A stretch of 64,000 nucleotides of DNA from Planctomycetota bacterium (GCA_012960845.1 DUAN01000191.1:5699-69698), one strand, 5' to 3'. Counted from the first letter of the stretch, positions 9,401 through 43,262 are shown. Program-made: numbers and translations. The notes: a model not told the origin generated them from the sequence alone.

Positions 9401-9744
9401 CCGCAGATCGAGATGCCGCAGTTGCTGCCTATCGGGCCTTCTTCGGCGGAGGTCCGCCTCCACCGACCGGAGGCTTCCAGCGGGCTGATTGCAACGCAGA
9501 CGGAGCATTCAACATCGCCGACGCCGTCTTCACACTGGCGAATCTCTTCTCCGGTGGACCCGAGAGTACCTGCGTCGACGCCTGCGACTCCAACGACGAC
9601 GGCAGCATCAACATCGCCGATGCGGTCTTTGCTCTGGCGACTCTCTTCAGTGGAGGTCCCAATCCTCCAGCACCGTTCGGGGACTGCGATGCCGATCCGA
9701 CCTCCGACTCCCTCGAGTGCGTGGAGTACAACAGCTGCCCCTGA
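6496..9744 (+). CDS. Giant secreted protein: lamin-tail domain (LTD), MopE-like Cys-rich linker, PPC-like domain, two tandem proprotein-convertase P-domains, FN3-like module, the ~245-aa shared module and the dockerin-like C-terminal module
   Basis: The track ORF starts at 6427, but the signal peptide MKSLSFAVLMALLITVFPGALSGQ starts at 6496. LTD motif VVINEVRIDQSSTDTDEYFELAGPAGQSLTGL. P-domain signatures DLDVGVEITHAFIGNLDIDVVAPSQTQIRL and DLDIDIDITHGDASDLEVDLVSPQGTSIRL...GAWTLTVADTISGIEGSLNGWALQV. C-terminus QRADCNADGAFNIADAVFTLANLFSGG...CDSNDDGSINIADAVFALATLFSGGPNPPAPFGDCDADPTSDSLECVEYNSCP. Confidence 0.75.
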   Translation: MKSLSFAVLMALLITVFPGALSGQVVINEVRIDQSSTDTDEYFELAGPAGQSLTGLSYIVLGDSSAGSGSVEAVVTLFGQTIPGSGLFVAAEATFTIGVADFTTDLNFENSDNVTHMLVSGFTGVVGDDLDTDDDGILDSTPWSSIEDDFALLENPIDPITGNTSAGELVYSQNTIGPDGTFTPAHVVRCPDISGDWEIMPFADLGAPFDTPGSFNTCPEVCDNGADDDGDGDTDCADLDCAGDPSCAPTPPNDDCTAATALIEGVFGFTTLGSSTDGPTNCGGSLLNDIWFLYTASCSGTVTFSTCNSANFNPQMAIYPGSSPCPPAVDSFIACDAGSCSGSGEPEIFLDAIAGEDYLIQIGGFNGERGDGTLTISCPPADCHQFPNPNIEYDGFVGTLVSNAPAAPITDTAPAFDLIDVTSGGTIADLDVGVEITHAFIGNLDIDVVAPSQTQIRLYQSETNSDDDMSLIFDDEGVDYGTVTTWSGSRMQPYELSQGTGSLANFDGEPANGTWGIIIADIFAGSAGGTLDQWSLQISQPLAIPDGTSFSENQILIDPIDTTGILDLDIDIDITHGDASDLEVDLVSPQGTSIRLHDHGAGTDLLGRFDDATGSNDGFGGLIPSGPGTLADFDGEAVGGAWTLTVADTISGIEGSLNGWALQVCPADCAPPTDLLLTSNCGDGTVSLSWINNSPYDSIQIDRDGAPLDTVAGTASDYTDLTASDGFHDYTVRGICPVGAASVEESITHYSYNGEDTIVVALEGLFDGGDTGANDSGQAILDSLLAAGANARLIRTQIDEYACLDPQTVSQVWIACGTYPTDFNLTSEEANLIADLAAAGVAIYFESADHWSFNHPISSFDDRDGVAEPYAQDENDSLTSIDGVDSGLGIDMSGSQNVSYNQDSTGNDYNNYLIPASAELAGGNAGLVWQYDDAIGNIDPNLGVTTAYLPATGAPVICSSFELGGMGSAADRDAAVAAYRAFFGGGPPPPTGGFQRADCNADGAFNIADAVFTLANLFSGGPESTCVDACDSNDDGSINIADAVFALATLFSGGPNPPAPFGDCDADPTSDSLECVEYNSCP

Positions 9745-23714: not shown

Positions 23715-26700
23715 TCAATTACAGGAGTTGTACTGAGCACAATCCAGTGCAGTTCCTGCCGGATCGGGTCCACACGACCCGCCGAAGGGCGCCGGTGGTG
23801 GAGGACCTCCCGAGAAGAGATACGAGAGCAGGTATACCCCATCGGCGATGTTGGAAAGTTCATCATCGTTGGTATCTGCGGCATCCATGCAGTTGATCAC
23901 TCCACCGAGGAACAGCGCATCGAGAACCGTGATCGCATCGGCAAGATTGATCAGCGAATCGTCGTTGACATCGGATCTCACGAACCCACCACCCACCGCT
24001 GGAGTGAGAGTGATCGTTCCAGCGACCCCGACGGCACCGAGGGCGCCGGAGTTCACCACCACCACCACCTGGACCGGAGGAGTGCCTAGGTTGCCCGAGA
24101 TCGACAAGGTGGTCAGCACATCACTCGACGATCCAGCGAGTGCGCCAGGAACCGTATCGTAGCTGGCGATCGCCAGGTCGATGGGCGTGGCGAACTGGAT
24201 GGTGCCGGTTCCCAGGAAACTGTAGACGCAGCCCATGGTGAAGCCATCGGTGAACAGATTCACATCGATGAAGTCTGGTCCGGTGGAGCCATTGAGAGCG
24301 TCGATCACTGGCCCACCGGCAGCAGCGTTCACCGTCAAGAGCGCAGGATCATGCTCCACTCCAAAGGAGAATCCCTGGGTATCGTTGGGATATCCGCCAT
24401 TGCCGGGATCTTCTTCCAGGGTCAAGGAAGCATCAAAACTAGCCACTCCAGTCGACTCCGAGAAACCCACCGTCTGATCAACGGCGGAGAGGATGAAGCC
24501 AGAAGGTGTCAGAGTCACGATCGCTCCGGTCGGAACCACTCCCACGGCAATCCCCGAATCGGTCGAGATCACCGCCTGCACCGGAGGCACCCCCAGAGAG
24601 TCGGTGAAATCGAGCGCGGAAATCACGGTGCCGGTAGTGGTGTTGAAGACTCCGGGTAGGGAGTCGTAGCTGACCGACGCCAGATCGGTATCGGAGATCA
24701 TCTGGATCGTCTCTGCAAAGGTGAAACTGTAAACACAGCCCACCGTGATGCCATTGGCATAGATGGCAGAGTCGAAGAATTGCGGACCGGCTCCGCCATC
24801 GAGTTGGGCCACCGATCCCGCCGGCGCCGCATCGATTGCGGCGAACAGATCAGGATTGTGTGCCAGGCCAAAAGAGAATCCTGCGGTGTTGGTCGGGTAT
24901 CCCGGGTGATCGGTGAACTCCCGGCCAGTGATGGTGGTCTCGAACTGGACTCCCGCTGCGCTGTAACCAGCAGTGACATTCTGCGACACCAGGCTGAAGC
25001 CGGCGGTCTGGGTGACCGTGACCGAACAGATCACCTCGGGGGCTTGCTGACTGCCTCCGCAGATTCCGGTCACACCGTAAACGTGATCACCAAGAGATGG
25101 TGATCCATCGGAGAATCCGGTAGCCGTACCCGACAAGGTCTGGATCAACAGACCATCTCGACGCACCGCAATCTCGCTATAAGTTTCACCGTTGAGCCAT
25201 GAGAGGTTCACAGTGGAGCCGATTCCCTGACTACACGACAGTGAGATCACTGCACTGCAAACACAGTCCGGATCGCCGATACAATCGGGATCCTCGCAGT
25301 CGGTCAGTCCATCCAGATCGTCATCGATCCCATTGGAGCAATTCTCGGGCGGTGGAGGAGGCGTGGCGGAGCCAATCTCCAGTGTCCCCGTTCCATTCGC
25401 TGTTACATTCCAACCACCCACTCGGATGCGATAGAGCACTCCGCTGGTCATCGGCATCTGAACCAGGCTACTGAATCCTCCACAACCGGGGCCGTCCCCG
25501 TTACAGCCGACCTGGGTCAGCGCTCCGCAATCACCCTGATAGATGACGATGTCAGAATCGAAGTTGATGGTGTCACAGGTGGAAATGGTGTAATCGCCAC
25601 TCAGGTCCGGAGTGAAGTCATACCAGATGTCACTGGTCATCTCACCGAGGAAGGTGCCGGGACAGCTGTTGGAATCGAAAGGATCGGCACTCTGGGTCGC
25701 GGTGGTAGTGTCGACCGGGTTCGACCCGAAGACAGCCACCGCTGCCGAGACACATTCATCTCCAGCAGCCACCGGCACGCAAGCGGGGTCCGTGAAACAA
25801 CCGGGATCCTCACAGTCGATCAGACCATCTCCATCATCATCGACACCATTACTGCAGTTCTCGACCGGTCCCGACGGGGTGAGGTCCAGCAGCAATGCGC
25901 CTGGGCCCGGATCTCCATTGCCTGGATGCGGTGTTCCCCAGGCTCCGACGCGGAACCAGTAGGTCTCCCCTGCAGTGACGCTGGCGGTCAATTCTGACCA
26001 GTACTGCTGACACACTGTCGAAGGTGCCTGACTCACATCCCCGTTACAGGCGAGCAGGATCAATGAGTTACAGGACCCCGTGTACATCACCAGGTCGGAG
26101 TCAAAACTGCCCGGCTGGCAAGTGGAGACAAACAGGCTTCCTGACTGGTCCGGAGTGTAGGTGAACCAGATATCTCCGATCATCGACCCGAGGCCATCAC
26201 CGCACAAAGCCGGAGTGGGAATCGGATCGGTTCCTGTGGTCGCAGCGGTGCTGTCGAACGGATTCTCACCCAACACCGCCGCTTCAGCAGAGACGCACTC
26301 GTCCCCCGGAGGAGGAGGAACACAGGCGGGTGCAGCGGCGCAATCCAGATCCTCGCAGTCGATCAACCCGTCGCCATCGTCATCGACGCCGTTGGTGCAG
26401 TTCTCCACCGCTCCTCCGCCACCGCCGACAAAACCGACATCCAGTTGCCCGGTGCCGGTCGTTCCGTCACTCCAGGAAGCGACCCGAATTTGATAACTCA
26501 ATCCGCCACTGACCGGAATGTTTTCGATGAGCGAAGTGAAGGTGGAACAACCGCCGGTATCACCATTGCAGGCGATCTGGGTCAAGGATCCACAATCACC
26601 GCTGTAAACCAGCACATCGGTATCCCAGGTGGCGATGTCGCAGGTACTGACCGAAAGCAATCCATCTTCCGGAGGAACAAAGGAGTACCAGATATCGTTC

Positions 26701-28520
26701 CCGACATCTCCGAGGAAGGTGCCGCTACACTGGCTCGCATCGGCCGCTGGCCCACCGGAGGTGGCGTTGTTGCTATCGATACTGTTGAGTCCCACAAATA
26801 CCGGCACCGAACCGGAGCAGTCATCGTTGGCCGGAGGAGGCCCCGGGGGAGCCTGTCCACAGACCAGTTCCGACATCCCCACGGCCGTCATCGCAGCCGC
26901 GACTTGATCAGCATCCGATTGCGTGAAGGTCGCACCGGCCGCGCCGGTGCGGGGATCATTGGGCGCACTTCCGACCAGGTCGGCAGCGGCCTGATTCATC
27001 AGCGTATCCGCCACCGGGAAGGTGGTTCCCGATGTCATGTATACGGTCAAGGCCCGGAAGTACACGGCGATCGCCTTGGTCATGCCAATCGCCGATACGG
27101 TCTGACCGTTGTAGGTCTTTCCATCGACGAGCATGGCGAAGGAGTGATTGAACACTCCACTACCGATGTGGACCCCGCCATTGTCAAATGGACCGCAGGC
27201 GTTCTGATTGTAGAGCGGGTCGGTGGTACTGGGAGGATCGCTGAAGCACTCGGGGAACCACATGTCTCGAATCGCTCCGAGGCTGGTTTGCTCCCCCATC
27301 TTCCAGCGAGTAGATCCATCATTGCAAGATGTTCTGGTGTTGTTGGGTGTATCCATTCCGCCGCCGGTGGTTCCTCCGGGCCATGGAGTGCCGCCGGGGG
27401 TTCCCACTTCCGATGTGTTGCCGTTCCACAGATCGATCGCCTCGCCGAAGATATCGGAATAGGATTCGTTCAACTGACCCGACTGGTTCTGATAGATCAA
27501 ATCTGCCGAGAACTGGGTGAGCCCGTGGGCAAATTCATGGGCGATCACATCATCCGTGGCCAGACCGTTGCACAGTGCAATCTGATTGCCGTTCCAGATG
27601 GCATTGGGGCAAATTCCATCGTTCCAGTGCACCGTGGCAGTCATCGTCGAGCCATTCCCATTGAGGGAATCGCGTCCCAGTCCATCGAACAGCAGGCGAT
27701 AGAAGTCTCCTGCGGTGTCGTATCCCTCATCGATGTCGGTGTCGCCGCTGGGGGCGGATCCTTCCGAGCGGGCCAGGCTCCCTGGCAAGGTGCCGCCTCC
27801 ACCGTCGTAGATCTCCCGGAACATGGCACTGTGGACCGCCGGCCAGCGATCGAGCAGTTCGCCGCTGCTGGCGTCGATCAGCACATGCTCGGCGAGCATC
27901 TCAGCGCCTTCGAGAATCATGTGATGCGCCAGTACTGGCCGAGGAAGGGGAGCATCTCCCCACCAACCGGGATTCACCACGGCCAGTTCAGGTTCCATCG
28001 TCTGCACCAAAAATCGCTGTTCTAAAACCGCTTCAGCGATGACGAGAGCCTCTTCCGCAGAGAGCAGCGGCGTCACCGACAACTTCTTCGGTAAGCGGAA
28101 AAAGTCACCGTTGATGGAGAGCGGAGTTCCATCCGCTTGCAGGTGAACCTTGATCACAGCGGTGAAGACTTCCACTCCCAGATGAATCTGCTGAAAGGTG
28201 TGGTGAATCATCCCGAGAGAGCATCGCTCGGTCTTGATGATCTTCAGCTGTTGCTCGGGATGCTGGATTCCGAAGCGAGCGCCGTGATAGCGTAATACCT
28301 GGTATGGATCTTTCAGGTCCGGGGCGACACCCTCCGGAAACGGCAATGGTTGGCCGTCGACTCCTGAAATCATGTGGATCCTGCTCCCCGGGGTCGAGTT
28401 CTCGACCACTCCCTGGAGCCACGACTGACCCGATCCAGTCGTTGGAATCATGCACTGAATCAGCAGAACGCACACAGCGATCATGGCTCGCATGGATGCA
28501 CCTTTCTCATTGGATTTCAC
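23715..28520 (-). CDS. Giant secreted M4 (thermolysin-like) zinc metalloprotease (1601 aa) with three PPC-like domains, three MopE-like Cys-rich linkers, an FN3-like module, two ~130-aa Ig-like repeats and the dockerin-like C-terminal module
   Basis: Signal peptide. M4 active site VIAHEFAHGLTQ...GQLNESYSDIFGEAID (HExxH plus downstream E). Three copies of CxNG[VI]DDD[GL]DGLxDCEDxDC. C-terminus VRSDVNDDSLINLADAITVLDALFLGG...DTNDDELSNIADGVYLLSYLFSGGPPPPAPFGGSCGPDPAGTALDCAQYNSCN. Confidence 0.85.
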   Translation of the reverse strand: MKSNEKGASMRAMIAVCVLLIQCMIPTTGSGQSWLQGVVENSTPGSRIHMISGVDGQPLPFPEGVAPDLKDPYQVLRYHGARFGIQHPEQQLKIIKTERCSLGMIHHTFQQIHLGVEVFTAVIKVHLQADGTPLSINGDFFRLPKKLSVTPLLSAEEALVIAEAVLEQRFLVQTMEPELAVVNPGWWGDAPLPRPVLAHHMILEGAEMLAEHVLIDASSGELLDRWPAVHSAMFREIYDGGGGTLPGSLARSEGSAPSGDTDIDEGYDTAGDFYRLLFDGLGRDSLNGNGSTMTATVHWNDGICPNAIWNGNQIALCNGLATDDVIAHEFAHGLTQFSADLIYQNQSGQLNESYSDIFGEAIDLWNGNTSEVGTPGGTPWPGGTTGGGMDTPNNTRTSCNDGSTRWKMGEQTSLGAIRDMWFPECFSDPPSTTDPLYNQNACGPFDNGGVHIGSGVFNHSFAMLVDGKTYNGQTVSAIGMTKAIAVYFRALTVYMTSGTTFPVADTLMNQAAADLVGSAPNDPRTGAAGATFTQSDADQVAAAMTAVGMSELVCGQAPPGPPPANDDCSGSVPVFVGLNSIDSNNATSGGPAADASQCSGTFLGDVGNDIWYSFVPPEDGLLSVSTCDIATWDTDVLVYSGDCGSLTQIACNGDTGGCSTFTSLIENIPVSGGLSYQIRVASWSDGTTGTGQLDVGFVGGGGGAVENCTNGVDDDGDGLIDCEDLDCAAAPACVPPPPGDECVSAEAAVLGENPFDSTAATTGTDPIPTPALCGDGLGSMIGDIWFTYTPDQSGSLFVSTCQPGSFDSDLVMYTGSCNSLILLACNGDVSQAPSTVCQQYWSELTASVTAGETYWFRVGAWGTPHPGNGDPGPGALLLDLTPSGPVENCSNGVDDDGDGLIDCEDPGCFTDPACVPVAAGDECVSAAVAVFGSNPVDTTTATQSADPFDSNSCPGTFLGEMTSDIWYDFTPDLSGDYTISTCDTINFDSDIVIYQGDCGALTQVGCNGDGPGCGGFSSLVQMPMTSGVLYRIRVGGWNVTANGTGTLEIGSATPPPPPENCSNGIDDDLDGLTDCEDPDCIGDPDCVCSAVISLSCSQGIGSTVNLSWLNGETYSEIAVRRDGLLIQTLSGTATGFSDGSPSLGDHVYGVTGICGGSQQAPEVICSVTVTQTAGFSLVSQNVTAGYSAAGVQFETTITGREFTDHPGYPTNTAGFSFGLAHNPDLFAAIDAAPAGSVAQLDGGAGPQFFDSAIYANGITVGCVYSFTFAETIQMISDTDLASVSYDSLPGVFNTTTGTVISALDFTDSLGVPPVQAVISTDSGIAVGVVPTGAIVTLTPSGFILSAVDQTVGFSESTGVASFDASLTLEEDPGNGGYPNDTQGFSFGVEHDPALLTVNAAAGGPVIDALNGSTGPDFIDVNLFTDGFTMGCVYSFLGTGTIQFATPIDLAIASYDTVPGALAGSSSDVLTTLSISGNLGTPPVQVVVVVNSGALGAVGVAGTITLTPAVGGGFVRSDVNDDSLINLADAITVLDALFLGGVINCMDAADTNDDELSNIADGVYLLSYLFSGGPPPPAPFGGSCGPDPAGTALDCAQYNSCN

Positions 28521-28864: not shown

Positions 28865-30301
28865 TCAGGAACAGGAGGTGTAATCCTCACACCCGAGCGC
28901 ACCGGGAGTGGGATCGGGAGCGCAACTACCGGTTCCAGGAGGCATCGGGCCGCCGTTGAACAAGGCAGCCAGCATGTGCACGGCATCGGCAATGTTCCCC
29001 TGGTTATCGTCATTGCTATCACAAGCATTGGCACAAACGATGACTCCACCGAGGAAAAGGCCATCGAGCAGGGTGATCGCATCTCCGATATTGAAACTGA
29101 AATCGTCGTTGCAATCTCCACGATTGAATCCACCGATCGCCGTGAGCAATACGCTGCCCGCTTGACCGGTCATGTCGATCGATTGCCCATCGACCACCAT
29201 CACCATCGTGACTCCTGTCGGCCCGAGGCCGCTAGTCGGTGTCAACGTGGTCGAGATGCTAGCTCCCGGAGGCGTGCCGACCAGCGCTCCTGGGACCGTG
29301 TCATACTGGACCAGCACTGCTTCTGTCGGTGTGTCAAAGCCGATGAAGGCCCCCCCTTGAAAATCGTAGATGCAACCGACGGTGATTCCACCGCTGATGA
29401 TCCCGACATTGAAGAACTCCGGACCGGTTCCTCCTTCAAGGCTCGCCAACGATGCGCCATAGTCGACTGCGGTGGCCTCGAGTACGGCTGCGTCATGGGC
29501 CACTCCCAGTGAGAATCCCTGGGTCTCTGCGGCAGTATCTCCCGGCTCCACGTCCTGATCGATCTGCACGGTTCCTGTGAAGGATCCGACCCCTGTGGAG
29601 GAACTGAAGGTTGCTGCCTGATCGACACAGATCACCTCGAAGGCCATCGGAGGAGCGGCCTGAAAGGTGATCGAAAAGGGCATTCCAGTGGTCGGCGCCG
29701 AGGAACCGGCTCCGATCACCACGACAGTGGTGGCGGGCGGAGTTCCGAGGTCGCTGGCACTGCTGATGGTCGTGACCACATTTCCGGTCGATCCCGAGAG
29801 GGCTCCCGGAATCGTCGCGTAATCCACCTCGATCATCGGGAGTGGAGTACCGAAGGTGATGACCTGGCTCTGGTCGACGAATGCGTAGATCACTCCGACT
29901 GTGAAGCCATTGGTGAACACCTCACCCTGGATGAAATCCGGTCCTGTGCCGCCATTGAGCGCGGCCAGTGACCCGACAGGAGTCGGGATATAGGGGTTCG
30001 ATCCCACCACTTCCAGCAAGGTCGAATCGTGACCGTAGGCCATCGAAAACCCCTTGGTCTCTTCGAGTGCACCCGTGACCTGCACGATGCTGAAGGTTGC
30101 GCTGAATGTTGCAGAACCTCCGCCCGCAGGAACCATTTGATCTGGGGAGGAAATTTCAAAGGTCTGACCCCACGCCGCAGAGGCGGTGAAGAGCACAAAC
30201 AGTAAAACAAAAATACCGAAAATTAGGCCACCATGTCGCATCGAAACACCTCTTCCTGACACCTGGATGTCACCTCGGGCCACAAAGAAACCCGGAAGCA
30301 A
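28865..30301 (-). CDS. Secreted protein (478 aa) made of two Ig-like ~130-aa repeats homologous to the C-terminal repeats of the adjacent M4 protease, plus the dockerin-like C-terminal module
   Basis: Signal peptide MRHGGLIFGIFVLLFVLFTASAAWGQ. Repeats GFSLGVAHDAAVLEATAVDYGASLASLEGGTGPEFFNVGIISGGITVGCIYDF... are similar to protease GFSFGVEHDPALLTVNAAAGGPVIDALNGSTGPDFIDVNLFTDGFTMGCVYSF.... C-terminus NRGDCNDDFSFNIGDAITLLDGLFLGG...CDSNDDNQGNIADAVHMLAALFNGGPMPPGTGSCAPDPTPGALGCEDYTSCS. Confidence 0.7.
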   Translation of the reverse strand: MLPGFFVARGDIQVSGRGVSMRHGGLIFGIFVLLFVLFTASAAWGQTFEISSPDQMVPAGGGSATFSATFSIVQVTGALEETKGFSMAYGHDSTLLEVVGSNPYIPTPVGSLAALNGGTGPDFIQGEVFTNGFTVGVIYAFVDQSQVITFGTPLPMIEVDYATIPGALSGSTGNVVTTISSASDLGTPPATTVVVIGAGSSAPTTGMPFSITFQAAPPMAFEVICVDQAATFSSSTGVGSFTGTVQIDQDVEPGDTAAETQGFSLGVAHDAAVLEATAVDYGASLASLEGGTGPEFFNVGIISGGITVGCIYDFQGGAFIGFDTPTEAVLVQYDTVPGALVGTPPGASISTTLTPTSGLGPTGVTMVMVVDGQSIDMTGQAGSVLLTAIGGFNRGDCNDDFSFNIGDAITLLDGLFLGGVIVCANACDSNDDNQGNIADAVHMLAALFNGGPMPPGTGSCAPDPTPGALGCEDYTSCS

Positions 30302-30522: not shown

Positions 30523-31800
30523 TCACCAATCCTCTCCCTTGCTGATTCGAAACTCTCTCAGACTCTCGCTCTGGATCTTCCAGAAGCCGGCACTGCGTCG
30601 CATCAGTCGGCTCACCAGGCGCCCGTTGAGGTAGACACCAGGCGTGCCCCTGACCCCTAACTTGCGTGCCAGAGAAATATCCTGGCCGATTCTCCTCGTG
30701 ACCTGGGCACTTTGCATATCCTTGAGGAATCGATCGGCATCCATCGCCAGTTCGGTGGCCGCCTTGCTCCAGTTGACGACCCCCAGCGATTGGCGCCGCG
30801 GCAGCAGCCAGTCCCTCAACTGCCAGAACTTGCCCTGTAATCGCGCCGCTTCAAGTGCTCTGGCTCCCGGCATCGCATTCGGATGCTTCGAGGTGTTGGG
30901 GAAGTGTTTCCACACCACCTCCAGGTGGCCGTTCCAGATGGGAAGAATCGTCTGCTTGAGATATTCATCGAAGCGCCCGCAATTGGGACATTCCACATCG
31001 GAAAAGATCACCAGTTGATAGTGATACCCACCCACGTCATCGATGATGGGATCATCGTCGCGAACTTCGATGACGTTCTTTTTCTCGAGCCGGTGCACCG
31101 TGTCCACTTTTTCAACATCGCTGGCGAATACCCTCAGTTCGAGAACTTCCTCTTCCAGTGACTGGAACCGGGCGCGCTCCTGGCCAGCCTCGAAGACCCC
31201 CCACTGGGCCACGCAAGCCAGCAGCAGCGTCGCTGCACTCGCCGCCAGCAACCGATTCGAAGGCGATCCGCCACCACGGGGCTCTTTTTGCCTCGGCCTC
31301 AATAACCACGAGACGATGAAAATTCCGATATTGCAGGCGTGCGTGAGAAGGCACAGGGTACAGACAGTTCCGATGGCAAAGAAGATGAGCGAGGTGTAGA
31401 TGATCGACCCCACAACGCCGAGCGCGTTGAGGTAGAGCACCATCCGAGACAACCACATTCGCCCCGGGTCGGGAATGCCGATCAACAGGTACCAGCTCGC
31501 CAGCAGCGCATAGTAGAGAAAACCCAGCGCTGCCACCGGAAAACCATCGTGGGGTCCATCTGACCCCTTTTCCCCCGGAGGCAACACTCCCCAGCGACTG
31601 TTGACCACCGAGGCGCAGCCATCCTCGGTTGCAGAGCAGACCGCTGCCAGCAGTCCAAGGTCGGCATCTTTCTCGGCATGGAGTAGCAGTAGCGAGCCGC
31701 TGGTCCAGGCTGCGATCAGCGCCAGCACTCCCGCGACCCAGACCAGATGCTTTTTCGACTTCATCAGCAACCTCCGTCGCATCAGTGTGTCGATTTCCAA
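30523..31800 (-). CDS. VKOR (vitamin K epoxide reductase homologue) fused to a DsbA/thioredoxin-like domain; disulfide-bond-forming protein
   Basis: N-terminal VKOR membrane domain with loop cysteines CSATEDGC and active site CTLC (TVCTLCLLTHACN). C-terminal thioredoxin-like domain with CPNC (VIFSDVECPNCGRFDEY). The start may be an internal Met (31782 or 31764). Confidence 0.8.
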   Translation of the reverse strand: MEIDTLMRRRLLMKSKKHLVWVAGVLALIAAWTSGSLLLLHAEKDADLGLLAAVCSATEDGCASVVNSRWGVLPPGEKGSDGPHDGFPVAALGFLYYALLASWYLLIGIPDPGRMWLSRMVLYLNALGVVGSIIYTSLIFFAIGTVCTLCLLTHACNIGIFIVSWLLRPRQKEPRGGGSPSNRLLAASAATLLLACVAQWGVFEAGQERARFQSLEEEVLELRVFASDVEKVDTVHRLEKKNVIEVRDDDPIIDDVGGYHYQLVIFSDVECPNCGRFDEYLKQTILPIWNGHLEVVWKHFPNTSKHPNAMPGARALEAARLQGKFWQLRDWLLPRRQSLGVVNWSKAATELAMDADRFLKDMQSAQVTRRIGQDISLARKLGVRGTPGVYLNGRLVSRLMRRSAGFWKIQSESLREFRISKGEDW

Positions 31801-32748: not shown

Positions 32749-35700
32749 CTAGGGGCACCCCAACACCCCGACACAGTCGAGCAGGTCCGCGGTCGGATCC
32801 TCGCCACAGGTGGGGAAGGGGAGCGGCGGGGTAGCGCCTCCACTGAAGAGGAAGCCGAGCAGGAAGACCGGATCGGAGATATCCCCCGAACCGTCATCGT
32901 TGGCGTCGAGCGCATCGACACATCCACTGCTTCCGCCACCAAACAGGAAGTTCAACATTCCCACGGCATCGGAGATATCGATCGAGCCGTCGCCATTGGA
33001 ATCGCTGCGGACAAACTGCCCGATCGGATCATCGACAAAGATGCCCGCAGCATCGGGACCGCCGAGAGCCGCGATCGCCGCGTCTCCCATCCGCGCATCG
33101 ACGATGGCGAGGTTGGCGCAGCGCACCAGCGACACATCGGAATCGGGCCCGTTGTCACTCAGCATCCAGACCGGTAGGCCGCTTCCTTGCGAGTAGAGCC
33201 AGTCGGGGGCGACCAGTTCATCATCTCCCAGCACCTTGATGCCATTGACAAACAGCGCCGAGGTGTTGTTCTGGTAGTCGACCCGCTGGGCGATGCGAAC
33301 CCACTCACCGAGGTTCCAGGAGCCCGCGCCAACATAACCATTCCCTGCGTTGTAGAAGGCCCCATCGCTACATCGGAGAAACAACTCCGCATCATTATTA
33401 TTGGTCGCATTGCCCTGCCACAGCGCCTGTAACTGGGTCTGGCTGCTATCGAGAAAGACATCGAAGATCAGCGTGAAGTGATAGGCATCACAGCAACCTC
33501 CCCCACCATTGCCGGGGGCGTTGAAGTAGGTCTCGAGACCTCGCCCCGATCCGAACACGTTGTCGAGCCAGAGGTAGTCCACCGGTTGCTGATCGATGTG
33601 GGGTACCTCGCTGCCATCGCTGATTCCGGTTCCCCACTCCACATCGTGAAACATCCCCCGTGGAGTCATCACCGAAGAACCCAGTTGCGCCACCAGCGCC
33701 AGGTCATCGGCGGGAGACCCATCATCGAATCTCCACTCGGTAGTGAACTGGGTCGGATAATTCAGATCGGTGGTGAAACTCCACGTCGGACCCTCGGTCA
33801 CCTGGGAGCCGAGATGGGAATCGATGCGCCAGAAGTAGCTGGTCATTTCATCGAGGAGACCGGGATCGAAAGTGGTCGCGAGTTGATTGCCCTGGAAGTC
33901 GCCGGCACCGAGGGTTGCGGTGCTGCCCAGGTACACGTCGTAGGAATCGGCCGGATCGCAGGGGAACCACTGCAACAGTGGAGTACTGGAGACGTGGAGA
34001 TCGCCATCGGCGGGGATCGGTGCGGATGCGCCGGCAGTGGAATCTCCGACCTGAAAGGTCGTTTCCACCGACCAGTCGCTCCAACCGAGACTGCGATCGC
34101 GATAGCGCACCCGCCAGTACACCGAGGTGCAACCAGGCAGTGCAACATCCAGGCAAGTATGGGTCATGTCCGGATCCACCACGGTGTCGATGCTGATTCC
34201 AGGATCGACTGCCGGGGTGCGGTACCAGTTCTGGAAGCGTCTCCACTGATCGACCACCGGGTTGTTGTAATCTCCCGAGGTGAGAGACACCTGCCATTGA
34301 CTCTCGATGTGGTCATGGCCATCTGGATCGAGGTAAGGACTGGCACTGAGAATCACACCGTCCCCCGGGATCACACCTGAACCGGGACCCGGAGAGAGGG
34401 GGATCGGCGTCTCAGGGGAGGTGTTGTAGCGCTGGATGTAGATGTCATCGATGATCTCGTTATCGCGGAAGATGTAATCATTGCCGCGACTGATCCTCCT
34501 CAAGCGGAATGCTGGATCTGCCCCCGCCTCGACATCCATCAGCACGAATCCCCACTCCGGAACGCTGAACTCGAACTCCTGGTAATCAGCATTGGGATAG
34601 AGGCCCCAGTAGTCGAGCGATCCCATGGCACTGGCCACGTTCACCATGGTGTGTGAATGGTCGCGGCTCTGGCCCCGCGAATATCCATGGGTATGGCCGA
34701 AGAAGTGAATCGATGGCTTGCCGGTCATTGTGCTGAATTGCTCGACCATGCTGACCATCTGGCTGCTGAAAAGGGTTTCGCCCGGGGTCCAGATCTCCGA
34801 CTTGTGAGGGTGGTGAAACTGGGCAAAGACGAAATCGATCCGGTCATCGATGGAAGCATCTTGCAGAACCAGAGCGAGCCAGTCCAGCTGTTCCTGGATG
34901 CGATAGCCAGGATTGGTATCGAGTGTGATGACCCGGACATTGCGATGATCGAGATAATGCCAGTGCTCCTCGTAGCCAGCGCTACCGTTGGTCGGCAATT
35001 GCAGGTAATCGAAGTAATACTGCGCATCCGCCTCATGATTTCCCAGCGCAGGAATCAGCGGCACATGCCGATAGAGCAGTTTCGCCTGACCAAAGAAGTG
35101 ATCCTGCCAGTGCGAATGATTGGATCCGGTCGAGACCAGATCTCCCGGTACCAGTGAGAAGGAGAGACTTCGATCGAGGGGCAACCCGTACTCCTGTGCG
35201 CAGAAGGAAATCACCCCTTCATCGATCACCTCGCGATGCTTGATGCCGTTACTGCCGTACTGGCAATCGGAATAGGCGATGAAACGAAACGGGGTCTCAT
35301 CGGTGAGTGGCGGTGGAGTGCTGAAAAAGTGGGTCGCACTGATGATGCTTCCGCTGATCACCCGGTAGTAATAACGGGTATCGGGAGTGAGACCCGACAG
35401 TTCCACATGGTGAATGAAGGCTCCGCCACCACTGGCGATGCTGGTACCGCTCGACTGCTGACCCAGGGCACTGGTGAGACCATACTCCACCAGACTCTGG
35501 CTACTCACCGCAGTCTCCCAGCCGATCACCATCGAGGAGGGGGTCGGGGACTGCAGGTACGGCTCCACCAGCAGGTTCCCGACCTGAGATTGTGCCGGCG
35601 TCGACAGCGCCAGTAGCAGTAGCAGCGGAAGTGCCAGGGAAGGTTCAAATGAAGGTACAAATGAAAGTGCCTGCGCTGTTCTTCTCATCCTTGCCCTTCC

Positions 35701-35808
35701 CGGTTCATCGATGGCAGACCGTTGATCGGCGAGCGCCCGGCACCGGTGAAAGGAACGCCTCTCGAAGTGCCGGAGCAGATCTGTAGGATTCCAATTCTCC
35801 CCATCCAC
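32749..35808 (-). CDS. Secreted purple-acid-phosphatase-like metallophosphoesterase (1019 aa) with C-terminal LamG-like region and the dockerin-like C-terminal module
   Basis: PAP N-terminal domain LVEPYLQSPTPSSMVIGWETAV...YYYRVISG. Metallophos motifs GDLVSTGSNHSHWQDHFF, ALGNHEAD, FAQFHHPHKSE, GHTHGYSRG. C-terminus VRSDSNGDGSIDISDAVGMLNFLFGGG...LDANDDGSGDISDPVFLLGFLFSGGATPPLPFPTCGEDPTADLLDCVGVLGCP. Confidence 0.8.
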   Translation of the reverse strand: MDGENWNPTDLLRHFERRSFHRCRALADQRSAIDEPGRARMRRTAQALSFVPSFEPSLALPLLLLLALSTPAQSQVGNLLVEPYLQSPTPSSMVIGWETAVSSQSLVEYGLTSALGQQSSGTSIASGGGAFIHHVELSGLTPDTRYYYRVISGSIISATHFFSTPPPLTDETPFRFIAYSDCQYGSNGIKHREVIDEGVISFCAQEYGLPLDRSLSFSLVPGDLVSTGSNHSHWQDHFFGQAKLLYRHVPLIPALGNHEADAQYYFDYLQLPTNGSAGYEEHWHYLDHRNVRVITLDTNPGYRIQEQLDWLALVLQDASIDDRIDFVFAQFHHPHKSEIWTPGETLFSSQMVSMVEQFSTMTGKPSIHFFGHTHGYSRGQSRDHSHTMVNVASAMGSLDYWGLYPNADYQEFEFSVPEWGFVLMDVEAGADPAFRLRRISRGNDYIFRDNEIIDDIYIQRYNTSPETPIPLSPGPGSGVIPGDGVILSASPYLDPDGHDHIESQWQVSLTSGDYNNPVVDQWRRFQNWYRTPAVDPGISIDTVVDPDMTHTCLDVALPGCTSVYWRVRYRDRSLGWSDWSVETTFQVGDSTAGASAPIPADGDLHVSSTPLLQWFPCDPADSYDVYLGSTATLGAGDFQGNQLATTFDPGLLDEMTSYFWRIDSHLGSQVTEGPTWSFTTDLNYPTQFTTEWRFDDGSPADDLALVAQLGSSVMTPRGMFHDVEWGTGISDGSEVPHIDQQPVDYLWLDNVFGSGRGLETYFNAPGNGGGGCCDAYHFTLIFDVFLDSSQTQLQALWQGNATNNNDAELFLRCSDGAFYNAGNGYVGAGSWNLGEWVRIAQRVDYQNNTSALFVNGIKVLGDDELVAPDWLYSQGSGLPVWMLSDNGPDSDVSLVRCANLAIVDARMGDAAIAALGGPDAAGIFVDDPIGQFVRSDSNGDGSIDISDAVGMLNFLFGGGSSGCVDALDANDDGSGDISDPVFLLGFLFSGGATPPLPFPTCGEDPTADLLDCVGVLGCP

Positions 35809-35944
35809 AGCGCCAGAGTCAACTGCTCAAATTGTGAGGGAATCCGGTCTCTTCCCTTCGATCCCGACATACTGGACAATCCGCCTCAGAGGTGACGAAT
35901 CCCACGGCATCGAGCCGAACGAACCGAACACGGAGGCCCCTTCG

Positions 35945-42266: not shown

Positions 42267-43244
42267 ATGCCAGTTTCAGATTCACGGTCATCTCTCCTGT
42301 TGCTGTGCGGTTGCTTGTTGCTGCTGTTCCTTACCCTCCCCACTTTCTGCCAGGCGCAATTCACTCCAACCCTGTCGACCACTCTCGATAATCTCGATTC
42401 AGGACAAGCGAGTGGATTCATCCAGGATGGGTTCTTCTTCGAGGGTCAAGAGGGACCCTCTTCGATGCTGATTCAATTCGACCGCGGCTCCTTCGACTTC
42501 TCCGGATATGCTCCAGGACAACTGGTGGGAAGTCTGGTCGTCGAGGTCTTCGTCAGTGTAATTTTCGTCACCATTTCAGGGGACATCATTGCGGATGTTC
42601 AGGTGACCTCGGTCGGTCCCGATACGATGCAGGCGATCGCAGTCATCACCGACATCACGGGAAATGTTTCGGCAGGTCTGTCGCTGCTGGGGATTGATCT
42701 CAACATCGGCGATACCGCATTCGATGTACTCTATACCGATCTTGCCGGAGACACCGGAGCCACCATGAATGTCACCGACGCAGGATCCCTGCCGCTGAGT
42801 GGCAATCTCGATTTTGACATTCCGCTGACCTGGGCAACTGCTCCGATTCTCACTCACTCCCCCTTCGGAGGAGATCTCGTCGTCGAAACGCTACTCACCT
42901 CGACGACTGGCATCGAGTCCTCCTTCAACGAGGTGTTCCCGCTCACTGGGGGTACCACTCCTGACCCGGATCTGTTTAACCGAGGAGATGCCAACCAGGA
43001 CGGTACTTTTGATATCAGCGATCCGATTACGATGCTCGGATTCTTGTTCAACAACCTCCCGGTTTCGTGCGTACTGGCCTCGGATGCCAATGACGATAAC
43101 AGGGTCGACATCGCGGATGCGGTCTTCTGCCTGAGCGGACTCTTCGGCAGCGGAGCTCAGCCTCCCGCTCCCCATGGTGCATGTGGCGAGGATCCGACTC
43201 CTGGATTACTGACCTGTCTCCAGCAAAACAACAACTGCCCCTGA
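42267..43244 (+). CDS. Small secreted protein (325 aa) with the dockerin-like C-terminal module; paralogue of the next gene
   Basis: Signal peptide LLLLCGCLLLLFLTLPTFCQAQF. GGAGG RBS. C-terminus NRGDANQDGTFDISDPITMLGFLFNN...SDANDDNRVDIADAVFCLSGLFGSGAQPPAPHGACGEDPTPGLLTCLQQNNNCP. Confidence 0.65.
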   Translation: MPVSDSRSSLLLLCGCLLLLFLTLPTFCQAQFTPTLSTTLDNLDSGQASGFIQDGFFFEGQEGPSSMLIQFDRGSFDFSGYAPGQLVGSLVVEVFVSVIFVTISGDIIADVQVTSVGPDTMQAIAVITDITGNVSAGLSLLGIDLNIGDTAFDVLYTDLAGDTGATMNVTDAGSLPLSGNLDFDIPLTWATAPILTHSPFGGDLVVETLLTSTTGIESSFNEVFPLTGGTTPDPDLFNRGDANQDGTFDISDPITMLGFLFNNLPVSCVLASDANDDNRVDIADAVFCLSGLFGSGAQPPAPHGACGEDPTPGLLTCLQQNNNCP

Positions 43245-43262
43245 TTCGTCGGGTATGAGGAG

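What the first reader, a model, noticed from the sequence alone, without database searches (positions are those of the whole stretch)
23715..28520. 1601-aa thermolysin-family protease carrying three PPC-like domains, three MopE-like Cys motifs, Ig-like repeats and the dockerin-like C-terminal module
The catalytic M4 core (HEFAH...NESYSDIFGE) occupies only about 500 residues. The C-terminal part of the protein is built from (i) three ~100-aa PPC-like beta-sandwich domains, each preceded by (ii) a Cys-rich CxNG[VI]DDDxDGLxDCEDxDC element; (iii) an FN3-like Cys-clamped module; (iv) two ~130-aa GFSFG..HDP..L...GxTGPxF...GxTxGCxYxF repeats; and (v) the shared C-terminal module. An M4 protease of this size and architecture is unusual. 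It suggests a surface-tethered proteolytic enzyme rather than a freely secreted thermolysin.
Basis: partly seen in the sequence, partly recalled or inferred. Interest (0 to 1): 0.6.

Follow-up and report, generated by a model that had tools for sequence, protein, structure and literature searches.

The report
Protease carrying cohesin and dockerin modules
This is a real, conserved secreted zinc protease of an uncultured marine planctomycete whose long tail carries two cohesin modules and a dockerin module, the plug-and-socket parts that build cellulosomes, so it probably joins a multi-enzyme protein-degrading complex rather than acting as a free enzyme.

Summary
The ORF is real: 23715..28520 (-), 1601 aa from GTG. 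The conserved start is more likely the ATG at 28493, giving 1592 aa. Eleven independent Planctomycetota MAG assemblies hold the same single ORF, so it is not a misassembly.

The N-terminal third is a complete thermolysin-family (M4) zymogen. It has a signal peptide, an FTP propeptide, HEFAH, the NESYSD glutamate, and the Tyr157, Asp226 and His231 equivalents.

- The "PPC-like" domains are PF23759 galactose-binding-like beta-sandwiches, with no PPC hit.
- The "MopE-like" motifs are NCBIfam acidic double-disulfide repeats.
- The "Ig-like ~130-aa repeats" are two ~170-aa cohesin modules. This rests on an AlphaFold model (pLDDT 92) whose top 37 Foldseek PDB hits are all cohesins.
- The C-terminal module is a dockerin-type EF-hand pair with a four-cysteine tail.

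The window encodes nine such dockerins and four cohesins. The adjacent gene is a cohesin-cohesin-dockerin adaptor, and this synteny is conserved. The cohesin family (~1,700 clusters) is invisible to Pfam and almost always ends in a dockerin.

Best reading: a component that is both cargo and scaffold in a "planctosome"-like proteolytic assembly. Binding is untested.

Verdict: new variant of a known kind; interest 0.55.

The parts
23715..28520 (-). Whole ORF: 1601 aa from GTG at 28520, with the stop codon at 23715-23717. The probable true start is the ATG at 28493 (1592 aa).
   Evidence: Single-ORF orthologues in L002, L003, L005-L009, L011, L013, L014 and L016.
28425..28493 (-). Signal-peptide-like N-terminus (MRAMIAVCVLLIQCMIPTTGSGQ). 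It has no conserved lipobox cysteine.
   Evidence: Orthologue alignment. Read directly from the sequence; no predictor was run.
27834..28400 (-). Propeptide containing the FTP (fungalysin/thermolysin propeptide) motif.
   Evidence: Pfam PF07504, E=1.9e-9, residues 91-140. It also aligns to the thermolysin precursor 5a3y.
26886..27833 (-). M4 catalytic domain. Motifs: HEFAH (328), Tyr in LIYQNQ (341), NESYSD Glu (351), DNGGVH Asp/His (446).
   Evidence: Pfam PF01447 and PF02868. PDB thermolysin E=1.9e-30. Motifs invariant in 11 orthologues.
26427..26831 (-). Galactose-binding-like beta-sandwich module 1 (6 Cys).
   Evidence: Pfam PF23759 GBD_T9SS_assoc, 31.2 bits (GA 27).
26316..26414 (-). Acidic double-disulfide repeat 1 (CxNGxDDDxDGxxDCxDxDC).
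   Evidence: NCBIfam NF033662, 94.6 bits, 3 stretches. Own HMM scan.
25893..26306 (-). Galactose-binding-like beta-sandwich module 2 (divergent).
   Evidence: PF23759 at 15.6 bits, below GA. Paralogous to modules 1 and 3.
25773..25871 (-). Acidic double-disulfide repeat 2.
   Evidence: NF033662, best stretch 886-914. Weak PDB hit to the teneurin-4 Cys-rich region, E=0.0033.
25371..25766 (-). Galactose-binding-like beta-sandwich module 3.
   Evidence: PF23759 at 29.5 bits. AF2 model pLDDT 88.9, all-beta.
25257..25355 (-). Acidic double-disulfide repeat 3.
   Evidence: NF033662. Own HMM scan.
25011..25268 (-). FN3-like module flanked by cysteines. It recurs in other window proteins (2708-6124, 6427-9744, and three copies in 44440-47013).
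   Evidence: AF2 model with 7 strands. Foldseek hits to FnIII tandems. HMM scan. No Pfam hit.
24498..25013 (-). Cohesin module 1.
   Evidence: 40% identical to cohesin 2. Own orthologous class in 13 loci.
23994..24506 (-). Cohesin module 2.
   Evidence: AF2 pLDDT 92.1. Foldseek against the PDB: top 37 hits are all cohesins, best 5lxv_A at E=3e-10, target TM 0.6-0.78.
23718..23993 (-). Dockerin-like module. It has two EF-hand loop-helix repeats (DVNDDSLINLAD / DTNDDELSNIAD) plus a proline- and Cys-rich tail. The four Cys are at 1544, 1583, 1594 and 1600.
   Evidence: Profile of the 9 window copies against the PDB: type I dockerins at E=3.9e-5 to 1e-2. Three helices in the AF2 model. Homologues P0012 and P0016 pass the Pfam Dockerin_1 GA.
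28865..30301 (-). Adjacent upstream gene: signal peptide, cohesin, cohesin, dockerin adaptor (478 aa).
   Evidence: Synteny (1-3 such adaptors immediately upstream of the M4 gene) is conserved in L001-L017.
30523..31800 (-). VKOR-DsbA/thioredoxin fusion (disulfide-bond formation) next to the adaptor. A plausible helper for these Cys-rich secreted proteins.
   Evidence: Pfam VKOR, Thioredoxin_4 and DSBA. The same gene lies upstream of the adaptors in L001.
32749..35808 (-). Purple-acid-phosphatase-like metallophosphoesterase with the same C-terminal dockerin. A candidate cargo.
   Evidence: Pfam. HMM scan, with conserved position upstream in L005, L008, L009, L012 and L013.
6427..9744 (+). Dockerin-bearing protein with a weakly LTD-like N-terminus, an acidic repeat, a GBD module, two proprotein-convertase P-domains and an FN3-like module.
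   Evidence: Pfam P_proprotein E=8e-25. LTD only E=0.16. HMM scan.
438..2441 (+). Dockerin-bearing secreted protein, otherwise unannotated.
   Evidence: (Dockerin_1 at 21.2 bits).
2708..6124 (+). Dockerin-bearing protein with two GBD modules and an FN3-like module.
42267..44231 (+). Two tandem paralogous genes of about 325 aa (42267-43244 and 43263-44231), each an unknown ~230-aa domain plus a dockerin.
44440..47013 (-). Dockerin-bearing protein with CarboxypepD_reg-like repeats and three FN3-like modules.

Best explanation
The gene encodes a secreted thermolysin-family (M4) zinc endopeptidase made as a zymogen: signal peptide, FTP propeptide, then an intact catalytic core.

Its roughly 1,050-residue C-terminal extension is a modular arm with these parts, in order:
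- three Cys-rich galactose-binding-like beta-sandwiches, probably for substrate or particle binding;
- acidic double-disulfide repeats between them, probably Ca2+-binding rigid linkers;
- one FN3-like spacer;
- two divergent cohesin modules;
- one C-terminal dockerin-type EF-hand pair locked by a four-cysteine tail.

I propose it is both cargo and scaffold in a non-cellulosomal cohesin-dockerin assembly of marine Planctomycetota (a 'planctosome'-type complex). Its dockerin would plug, Ca2+-dependently, into a cohesin on an adaptor such as the neighbouring cohesin-cohesin-dockerin protein, or on another copy of itself. Its own two cohesins would recruit other dockerin-bearing proteins. Eight of these are encoded within the same 64 kb, including a phosphatase and a P-domain protein. 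The outcome would be a multi-enzyme, protein-degrading complex on cells or particles, feeding peptide uptake.

Shown: the identity of every module, intact catalytic residues, conservation of the whole architecture and of the adaptor synteny, and conserved cohesin and dockerin classes.

Inferred: actual cohesin-dockerin binding, which pairs bind, Ca2+ dependence, substrate, and how or whether the assembly is attached to the cell.
For: **M4 identity and competence.** Pfam FTP, M4 and M4_C score above their cut-offs. Thermolysin and neutral protease are the top PDB hits at E~1e-30, with aligned HExxH, NExxSD and DNGGVH. These motifs are invariant in 11 orthologues.

**Cohesins.** The AF2 model of residues 1340-1601 has pLDDT 92.1. 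Its top 37 Foldseek PDB hits are all cohesins, with E down to 3e-10. Family member P0019 passes the Pfam Cohesin GA.

**Dockerin.**
- A profile of the 9 window copies hits type I dockerins at E=3.9e-5.
- Homologues pass the Dockerin_1 GA.
- The Ca-ligand positions (D1, N3, D5, D12 of both loops) and the LF core are invariant across all classes.
- Loop position 2 and helix position 11 are class-specific.

**System context.**
- The window holds 9 dockerins and 4 cohesins.
- Adaptor genes with 2 or 3 cohesins plus a dockerin lie directly upstream of the M4 gene in 16 related loci.
- Cohesin and dockerin sequences cluster by protein type and position across species, as expected for distinct maintained specificities.
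- Family relatives fuse Coh-Doc to S1, S8 and M10 peptidases.
- Neighbours include VKOR-DsbA, an M24 aminopeptidase and a POT peptide transporter.

**Precedents.** R. bromii Amy4 carries both a cohesin and a dockerin and binds itself experimentally (PMC4611034). A 'planctosome' peptidase complex was hypothesised for freshwater Planctomycetes (PMC6461901).
Against: - No binding has been shown, and no multimer prediction could be run.
- The window's four cohesins give no hit to Pfam Cohesin even at E<=10. None of the 24 aligned family members, which include those four, hits it at E<=1. Cohesin profiles also find no PDB sequence. The cohesin assignment therefore rests on a predicted fold plus one marginal homologue.
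- This protein's own dockerin has no Pfam hit.
- No cohesin-bearing protein with a recognisable cell anchor was found. 134 of 146 family representatives (92%) also end in a dockerin, and the remaining 12 mostly look truncated or frameshifted. The classical anchored-scaffoldin logic is therefore not evident, and surface tethering is unproven.
- The short Coh2-Doc linker leaves open cis-binding or a purely structural role.
- Many M4 proteases shed their C-terminal domains on maturation (general knowledge of vibriolysin-type enzymes).
Confidence: 0.6

Rival explanations
1. It is a freely secreted thermolysin-like protease. The C-terminal beta-sandwich modules only aid folding, secretion or substrate binding. 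They are partly or wholly cleaved off on maturation, as with PPC-type extensions of other M4 enzymes. The cohesin- and dockerin-like folds are not used for assembly.
For: The M4 core and propeptide are ordinary. The nearest non-orthologous M4s (44-48% identity) carry other, unrelated C-terminal domains, so C-terminal arms are interchangeable in this clade. The cohesins are undetectable by Pfam.
Against: The full arm, including both cohesins and the dockerin, is conserved as one ORF at 65-96% identity in 11 assemblies. The dockerin Ca-ligand residues are invariant. Nine dockerins, four cohesins and dedicated cohesin-only adaptors sit in the same region. That is hard to explain without cohesin-dockerin pairing.
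Confidence: 0.15
2. The shared C-terminal dockerin-plus-Cys-tail module is primarily a sorting or cell-surface attachment tag, functionally like a T9SS CTD or an SLH-type anchor. It would bind a Ca2+-dependent envelope ligand. The cohesin-like modules would bind something other than dockerins.
For: The module sits at the extreme C-terminus in 9 of 9 window proteins and 123 of 146 family representatives. Every cohesin protein also has it, so there are always at least as many dockerins as cohesin proteins. The conserved tail PPxPFxxCGxDPTxDxLxCxxYxxC is class-independent. The GBD modules belong to a Pfam family named for T9SS association.
Against: There is no hydrophobic or charged anchor sequence. 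Dockerins are also typically C-terminal in cellulosomal enzymes. Dockerins fall into conserved classes differing at positions that include canonical recognition position 11, which fits several partners better than one common ligand. Cohesins have no known ligand other than dockerins (general knowledge).
Confidence: 0.15
3. It self-polymerises. The protease's dockerin recognises its own cohesin(s) in trans, or in cis as an auto-capped state. This would give homo-oligomeric protease chains independent of the adaptors, as with R. bromii Amy4.
For: One polypeptide holds both cohesins and a dockerin. Amy4 is an experimental precedent. Coh-Doc is the minimal recurring C-terminal unit across many enzyme types in the family.
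Against: M4 cohesin classes and the M4 dockerin class are distinct from those of the adaptors and are conserved, but nothing indicates which pairs match. The conserved adaptor synteny suggests hetero-assembly. This is a sub-variant of the best explanation rather than a true alternative.
Confidence: 0.08
4. The long ORF is an assembly or annotation artefact that fuses several genes.
For: In one related MAG (L001, GCA_045565955.1) the collinear region is split over three or four reading frames.
Against: Eleven independent assemblies carry the same uninterrupted ORF of 1257-1712 codons stop-to-stop, with the same module order. A 1602-aa cluster representative exists in the protein library. The L001 breaks are frame shifts within collinear homology, which points to sequencing errors or a pseudogene there.
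Confidence: 0.01

Closest known systems
Thermolysin / bacillolysin-type M4 metallopeptidases (e.g. PDB 5a3y pro-thermolysin, 1npc neutral protease)
   Same: FTP propeptide, a two-lobed catalytic domain, HExxH plus the Glu of NExxSD as zinc ligands, and the Tyr157, Asp226 and His231 equivalents.
   Different: A ~25-residue Gly/Thr/Pro-rich insertion follows the third zinc ligand. A ~1,050-residue C-terminal arm of 10 further modules is absent from the characterised enzymes.
Type I cohesin-dockerin pairs of clostridial cellulosomes (e.g. 1ohz, 2ccl, 2vn5)
   Same: The cohesin beta-sandwich fold. The dockerin is a duplicated EF-hand loop-helix with near-symmetrical repeats. Dockerins are C-terminal on enzymes and there are multi-cohesin non-catalytic proteins.
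   Different: - Sequence identity to known cohesins is 9-18%, with no Pfam or PDB sequence hit.
- The dockerin carries four invariant Cys and a conserved Pro/Cys tail.
- The cargo enzymes are peptidases and phosphatases, not glycoside hydrolases.
- Nearly every cohesin protein also ends in a dockerin, and no SLH- or sortase-anchored scaffoldin was seen.
Ruminococcus bromii Amy4 of the 'amylosome' (Ze et al. 2015, PMC4611034)
   Same: A secreted enzyme that carries a catalytic domain, a cohesin and a C-terminal dockerin in one chain, so it is both scaffold and cargo. For Amy4, self-recognition and recruitment of other enzymes were shown.
   Different: Amy4 is a GH13 amylase from a Firmicute with one canonical cohesin. 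Here the enzyme is an M4 protease with two divergent cohesins in Planctomycetota, and there are no binding data.
'Planctosome' hypothesis for freshwater Nemodlikiaceae (Andrei et al. 2019, PMC6461901)
   Same: Planctomycete cohesin/dockerin proteins are linked to Zn peptidases rather than cellulases. P-domain, lamin-tail and Ca-binding acidic repeats appear in the partner proteins. It is a genomic inference only.
   Different: - That model uses M12B and M14 peptidases that carry only dockerins, an LTD/P-domain anchor ending in a cohesin, and a Doc-HYR-Coh adaptor.
- Here the peptidase is M4 and itself carries two cohesins.
- The P-domain, weakly LTD-like protein ends in a dockerin.
- The adaptors are Coh2-3-Doc.
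- Whether the lineages are related was not tested.
Cellulosome-like complex proposed for Ca. Stygibacter (Cloacimonadota; PMC8542988)
   Same: Dockerin-bearing peptidases (S8/S53, C25) and a proposed role in polypeptide degradation outside the Firmicutes.
   Different: That system has a 3,755-aa cohesin/CBM scaffoldin with a T9SS-type CTD anchor. The enzymes there do not carry cohesins.
M4 proteases with C-terminal PPC/PKD domains (vibriolysin-type; general knowledge)
   Same: An M4 core followed by beta-sandwich accessory domains of the galactose-binding-like superfamily.
   Different: No PF04151 (PPC) match here at E<=10. The modules belong to PF23759, are Cys-rich, and are followed by cohesin and dockerin modules.

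Membership tests
Peptidase family M4 (thermolysin) | HExxH zinc-binding motif with the catalytic Glu | tested here: met
   HEFAH at 328-332 aligns to thermolysin HELTH. It is invariant (HEF/LAH or HEFTH) in 11 orthologues.
Peptidase family M4 (thermolysin) | Third zinc ligand: the Glu in NExxSD about 20 residues after HExxH | tested here: met
   NESYSD at 351 aligns to thermolysin NEAISD. The NE(S/A)xSD motif is conserved in all orthologues.
Peptidase family M4 (thermolysin) | Transition-state residues equivalent to Tyr157, Asp226 and His231 | tested here: met
   LIYQNQ (Tyr343) and DNGGVH (Asp446, His451) align to thermolysin LIYQNE and DNGGVH.
Peptidase family M4 (thermolysin) | Sequence-model membership (Pfam PF01447 and PF02868 above the gathering score) and an FTP propeptide | tested here: met
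   PF02868 92 bits (GA 24.4). PF01447 36.2 bits (GA 22.4). PF07504 37.6 bits (GA 21).
Peptidase family M4 (thermolysin) | Zinc-dependent endopeptidase activity inhibited by phosphoramidon or chelators | not testable with these tools
   Needs expression of residues ~33-555 and an azocasein or FRET-peptide assay.
Cohesin (PF00963) | Nine-stranded flattened beta-sandwich (jelly-roll) cohesin fold | tested here: met
   AF2 model pLDDT 92.1. Foldseek against the PDB: top 37 hits all cohesins (types I, II, III, C. perfringens and the A. fulgidus non-cellulosomal cohesin). E is 3e-10 to 1.8e-5 and target-normalised TM is mostly 0.6-0.78, with lower values where the PDB chain is much longer than one cohesin.
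Cohesin (PF00963) | Match to the Pfam cohesin sequence model | tested here: not met
   No hit at E<=10 for the four window cohesins. None at E<=1 for the 24 aligned family members. Only the remote homologue P0019 reaches 26 bits (GA 24.1), over positions 5-55 of 139.
Cohesin (PF00963) | Specific, high-affinity binding of a dockerin | not testable with these tools
Needs ELISA, ITC or AF-Multimer.
Dockerin type I (PF00404) | Tandem duplication of a ~22-residue EF-hand-like Ca2+ loop (D-x-N-x-D-x(6)-D) followed by a helix | tested here: met
   DVNDDSLINLAD...LF and DTNDDELSNIAD...LF. D1, N3, D5 and D12 are invariant in the 9 window copies and >=90% conserved in 58 family copies. The AF2 model shows three helices in dockerin order.
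Dockerin type I (PF00404) | Sequence-model membership | tested here: inconclusive
   This copy has no Pfam hit. Window paralogues score 21.2-21.3 bits against GA 22.9. Homologues P0012 (30.8) and P0016 (25.1) pass. The profile of window copies hits PDB type I dockerins at E=3.9e-5.
Dockerin type I (PF00404) | Ca2+-dependent cohesin binding | not testable with these tools
   Not measurable here.
   No PF04151 hit at E<=10 for any of the three modules. They match PF23759 GBD_T9SS_assoc instead. A profile against PDB sequences finds nothing. Fold hits are generic CBM or galactose-binding-like domains.
   NF033662 at 94.6 bits (cut-off 41), 3 stretches. No Pfam MopE-motif hit at the thresholds used, so 'MopE-like' is a resemblance only.
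Fibronectin type III-like module | Seven-stranded Ig-like beta-sandwich of FN3 topology | tested here: inconclusive
   The AF2 model shows 7 strands with pLDDT ~95. Foldseek hits include many FnIII tandems, but with low whole-model TM (0.25-0.37) because the query has two domains. No Pfam FN3 hit.
'Planctosome' as proposed by Andrei et al. 2019 | Dockerin-bearing Zn peptidases plus cohesin-bearing adaptor proteins in a planctomycete, without cellulases | tested here: met
   Planctomycete hallmark genes PSCyt2/PSD1 and DUF1501 are in the window. Relatives are all Planctomycetota MAGs.
'Planctosome' as proposed by Andrei et al. 2019 | An LTD / P-domain / TSP3 anchoring protein that ends in a cohesin, with M12B and M14 cargo | tested here: not met
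   The window's P-domain protein (6427-9744) ends in a dockerin and its LTD match is only E=0.16. The peptidase here is M4. No M12B or M14 protein with a dockerin was seen among the window ORFs scanned.

The most novel reading that the evidence does not exclude
Marine Planctomycetota may use a scaffoldin-less, recursively branching cohesin-dockerin network.
- In this Pfam-invisible cohesin family (~1,700 clusters), essentially every cohesin-bearing protein also ends in a disulfide-locked dockerin.
- Peptidases (M4, S1, S8, M10), phosphatases and 2-5-cohesin adaptors could therefore chain onto one another in a defined hierarchy set by conserved cohesin and dockerin classes.
- The product would be an extracellular, Ca2+-stabilised proteolytic mesh on cells or sinking particles.
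- This 1.6-kaa M4 enzyme would be a branching node: one plug and two sockets.
Probability: 0.3. Interest if true: 0.75.

Novelty: new variant of a known kind. Interest (0 to 1): 0.55.

Why it matters
Cohesin-dockerin assembly is the textbook mechanism of cellulosomes. Outside the Firmicutes it is known mostly from domain counts, plus one unvalidated 'planctosome' hypothesis.

This locus offers a compact, testable system in abundant but uncultured marine Planctomycetota. It has four cohesins and nine dockerins within 64 kb, conserved in 16 related loci from other MAGs. The cargo is peptidases and phosphatases rather than glycoside hydrolases.

If binding is confirmed, it would show three things:
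- Multi-enzyme complexes are used for marine protein and organic-phosphorus degradation.
- There is a large cohesin family (about 1,700 clusters at 50% identity) that current domain databases miss.
- There is an assembly logic in which every scaffold is also a cargo.

The disulfide-locked dockerins and orthogonal cohesin classes could also supply new parts for designer enzyme scaffolds. If binding is not confirmed, the protein remains an ordinary M4 protease with an unusually long accessory arm.

Tried and rejected
**Labels and readings tested and rejected**
1. PPC assignment. No PF04151 hit even at E<=10. Rejected in favour of PF23759.
2. MopE/Cu-binding label. No Pfam hit. NF033662 fits.
3. 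Misassembly. Rejected by 11 intact orthologous ORFs. The split version in L001 is frameshifted but collinear.
4. Lipoprotein anchoring through the Cys in the signal peptide. The Cys is not conserved (L005 and L013 have Phe) and position -1 is Gln. Rejected.

**Searches that led nowhere**
5. Sequence-profile detection of the cohesins in the PDB. Profiles of 4 and of 24 sequences gave no hit at E<=10. Only the fold comparison worked.
6. GBD profile against the PDB: nothing meaningful.
7. The search for related loci with alignments A3 and A1 failed because no stretch was conserved enough. The single-protein query worked.
8. The look-up of encoding contigs for the window protein: not on record.
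9. The homologue search with GBD3-ACID3-FN3 returned only one protein, so the second AF2 job used a shallow 17-row alignment.

**Limits of the tools**
11. M4 length distribution. The word-indexed protein search returned no protein longer than 972 aa in any list. It could not be used to judge how unusual 1,600 aa is. The representative library did contain long members.
12. Cis-docking of the dockerin on cohesin 2 could not be assessed. Model coordinates and PAE are not exposed, and pTM 0.68 alone is uninformative.

Full report
**1. Observation**

The ORF exists as described: 23715..28520 on the minus strand, 1601 codons from a GTG with no internal stop. Alignment with eleven orthologues shows that sequence conservation begins at the Met ten residues in (MRAMIAVCVLL...). 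The likely start is therefore the ATG at 28493, giving 1592 aa. The N-terminus looks like a type I signal peptide without a conserved lipobox. Residue numbers below use the 1601-aa frame.

**2. The protease**

- Pfam finds FTP (91-140), Peptidase_M4 (270-336) and Peptidase_M4_C (339-519), all above their gathering scores.
- phmmer against PDB sequences puts pro-thermolysin (5a3y, E=1.9e-30) and Bacillus neutral proteases at the top.
- The alignments pair HEFAH (328) with HELTH, LIYQNQSGQLNESYSD with LIYQNESGAINEAISD, and DNGGVH (446) with DNGGVH.
- The zinc ligands and the Tyr157, Asp226 and His231 equivalents are therefore all present. They are invariant in all eleven orthologues.
The enzyme is predicted to be a competent zymogen.

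**3. The accessory arm, module by module**

- *Beta-sandwich modules.* Three ~135-aa Cys-rich modules (564-698, 739-876, 919-1050) match PF23759 GBD_T9SS_assoc, two of them above the cut-off. None matches PPC even at E<=10. A profile of ten such modules finds nothing in PDB sequences.
- *Acidic repeats.* Each module is followed by a 33-aa acidic four-Cys repeat. NCBIfam recognises it as NF033662, the acidic double-disulfide repeat (94.6 bits against a cut-off of 41, three stretches). The only PDB echo is the Cys-rich region of teneurin-4 (E=0.003).
- *Model of 915-1172.* An AF2 model (pLDDT 88.9) shows an eight-strand sandwich, a poorly structured acidic linker and a seven-strand sandwich. Foldseek returns CBM or galactose-binding-like domains next to FN3 (CtXyl5A, Endo-A/D) and fibronectin FnIII pairs. 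'FN3-like' is therefore reasonable, and 'PPC-like' holds only in the loose sense of a beta-sandwich.
- *The two long repeats* (1170-1341, 1339-1509; 40% identical to each other and 28-30% to two repeats in the neighbouring gene). They have no Pfam or PDB sequence hit. An AF2 model of 1340-1601, built on 24 homologous segments, reached pLDDT 92.1. Its top 37 Foldseek PDB hits are all cohesins, with E down to 3e-10 and target TM mostly 0.6-0.78. They include types I, II and III, the C. perfringens cohesins and the non-cellulosomal A. fulgidus cohesin. One remote family member (P0019) also passes the Pfam Cohesin threshold. The 'Ig-like repeats' are cohesin modules.
- *The last 92 residues.* These hold two EF-hand-type loop-helix repeats (DVNDDSLINLAD..LF and DTNDDELSNIAD..LF) and a Pro/Cys-rich tail. 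A profile of the nine window copies hits type I dockerins (2y3n_B at 3.9e-5, CelS at 1.5e-4). Homologues pass the Pfam Dockerin_1 cut-off. The model shows the three-helix dockerin layout.

**4. Context in the window**

- The dockerin module ends nine ORFs in the 64-kb window.
- The nine are this protease, the adjacent 478-aa cohesin-cohesin-dockerin protein, a purple-acid-phosphatase-like enzyme, a protein with two proprotein-convertase P-domains, a CarboxypepD_reg/FN3-rich protein, a GBD-rich protein and three unannotated proteins.
- Only the protease and its neighbour carry cohesins, two each.
- A VKOR-DsbA fusion lies next to the adaptor, which fits the 49 cysteines of the protease.
- An M24 aminopeptidase and a POT-family peptide transporter are nearby.
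- PSCyt2/PSD1 and DUF1501 genes mark the genome as planctomycetal.

**5. Relatives**

- *Orthologous loci.* A scan of GTDB species genomes found 16 loci covering essentially the whole protein at 65-96% identity. Thirteen are titled Planctomycetota, Planctomycetes or Planctomycetia, including UBA1146. One is titled 'uncultured bacterium' and one is labelled Bacillota.
- *Conserved architecture.* My HMM scan of stop-to-stop ORFs shows FTP-M4-(GBD-ACID)1-3-FN3-COH-COH-DOC as one intact ORF in eleven of them. It is always preceded by one to three adaptor genes with two or three cohesins and a dockerin. This rules out misassembly. The number of GBD-ACID units varies from one to three.
- *The exception.* In one MAG (L001) the collinear gene is broken by frameshifts.
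- *Classes.* Cohesins cluster by position and protein type across species (M4-C1, M4-C2, A2-C1, A2-C2 and others). Dockerins do the same: the M4 class holds 13 of 13, the adaptor class has an extra Cys pair, and the phosphatase class has a DISD motif.
- *Dockerin conservation.* Across classes the Ca ligands, the LF core and four Cys are invariant. Loop position 2 and helix position 11 are class-specific. This is the pattern expected if several specificities are maintained.

**6. Size and rules of the family**

- A cohesin profile searched against 1.84 billion cluster representatives gave 1,695 proteins at E<=1e-3 and 1,103 at E<=1e-10.
- Of the 146 newly returned proteins among the best 150 hits, 134 (92%) carry the dockerin, 123 of them at the very C-terminus. 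The 12 without one mostly stop at a cohesin boundary or have frameshifted tails.
- The commonest forms are COH-COH-DOC (90) and COHx3-DOC (23).
- Long members include two further M4-...-COH-DOC proteins, two trypsin-like (S1) peptidases with GBD x3-COH-DOC, an S8 subtilase with two cohesins, and a protein with a weakly LTD-like N-terminus, a choice-of-anchor-I domain and five cohesins.
- An M10 peptidase with COH-DOC was also seen.
- None of 24 family cohesins hits Pfam Cohesin.
- The nearest non-orthologous M4 enzymes (44-48% identity, from Planctomycetes and Phycisphaerae) have other C-terminal domains. A few carry canonical dockerins.

**7. Interpretation**

The simplest reading is a non-cellulosomal cohesin-dockerin system for extracellular protein (and organic phosphate) degradation. 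In it this protease is both cargo, through one dockerin, and scaffold, through two cohesins.

Two precedents exist:
- R. bromii Amy4 has a catalytic domain, a cohesin and a dockerin, with self-binding shown experimentally (PMC4611034).
- The purely genomic 'planctosome' hypothesis for freshwater Nemodlikiaceae (PMC6461901) has since been cited but, in the papers I searched, not tested.

The present system differs from the published planctosome sketch in three ways. The peptidase family is M4, not M12B or M14. The enzyme itself carries cohesins. The P-domain protein carries a dockerin rather than a cohesin.

It differs from cellulosomes in the cargo, in the Cys-locked dockerin, and in the apparent absence of an anchored, dockerin-less scaffoldin.

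**8. What is not shown**

No cohesin-dockerin binding, Ca2+ dependence, pairing specificity, substrate, processing or cell attachment has been demonstrated. The cohesin call rests on a predicted structure.

Three alternatives remain open and are scored as rivals: a free protease that sheds its arm, the dockerin as a sorting or anchoring tag, and self-polymerisation.

**9. Verdict**

The key feature, two cohesins, was missed.

The finding is a new variant of known kinds (M4 protease; non-cellulosomal cohesin-dockerin systems). It is moderately interesting (0.55), mainly because it exposes a large cohesin family that domain databases miss and a compact system that can be tested experimentally.

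Noticed in passing
window 438-2441, 2708-6124, 6427-9744, 23715-28520, 28865-30301, 32749-35808, 42267-43244, 43263-44231, 44440-47013: Nine ORFs in 64 kb end with the same ~90-aa dockerin-plus-Cys-tail module. They fall into at least seven sequence classes, some with an extra Cys pair bridging the two Ca loops (RxDCNxDG ... DACDSNDDG).
   Followed up: yes
window 30523-31800 (-): A VKOR-DsbA/thioredoxin fusion gene lies directly upstream of the cohesin adaptor. The same gene is in the same position in L001. It may form disulfides in the Cys-rich secreted modules.
   Followed up: partly
window 6427-9744 (+): An 1105-aa dockerin protein with an N-terminus resembling a lamin-tail domain (VVINEVRIDQ...EYFELAG; Pfam LTD only E=0.16), an acidic repeat, a GBD module and two proprotein-convertase P-domains. 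The same N-terminal domain heads P0156, a 5-cohesin protein. It is a possible envelope-binding element.
   Followed up: partly
window 2708-6124 and 6427-9744, C-terminal ~235 aa before the dockerin: The two proteins share a ~235-aa domain (…ALEGL..GG.TG..DSGQA.LD.L.AAG…) with no Pfam hit at E<=1. Function unknown.
   Followed up: partly
window 42267-43244 and 43263-44231 (+): Tandem paralogous genes of about 325 aa. Each has a signal peptide, an unannotated ~230-aa domain and a dockerin. No Pfam hit.
   Followed up: no
window 32749-35808 (-) and 13602-15497 (-): Two purple-acid-phosphatase-like metallophosphoesterases. The first carries the dockerin and keeps its position upstream of the adaptor/M4 genes in several related loci. 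The second has a Laminin_G_3 domain and no dockerin.
   Followed up: partly
window 35834-37177 (+) and 49041-51131 (-): An M24 (aminopeptidase P-type) peptidase and a POT/PTR2 di/tripeptide transporter. Both are consistent with a peptide-scavenging lifestyle downstream of extracellular proteolysis.
   Followed up: no
window 37832-42153 (+): A PSCyt2/Laminin_G/PSD1 protein followed by a DUF1501 protein. This gene pair is typical of Planctomycetota and supports the taxonomic assignment.
   Followed up: no
L001 6125-10777 (GCA_045565955.1, 1.18-Mb contig): The orthologue of the protease is collinear but split over three or four reading frames (called as 876-, 356- and 259-aa genes). This points to indel errors or a pseudogene. 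The 259-aa 'Coh-Doc' protein P0004 is therefore probably a fragment.
   Followed up: partly
L005 (QNYK01000105.1): A full-length orthologue at 77% identity sits in a MAG labelled 'Bacillota bacterium'. Given all the other hits, this is probably a mis-binned or mislabelled planctomycetal contig.
   Followed up: no
window 26445-28025 (+): A 526-aa ORF lies antisense to the M4 gene. It is almost certainly a spurious open frame in GC-rich coding sequence.
   Followed up: no
protein-search outputs: None of the listed homologues from the word-indexed protein search exceeds 972 aa, although 1,200-1,700-aa orthologues exist in genomes and in the representative library. Long proteins seem under-represented in that tool's results.
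   Followed up: partly
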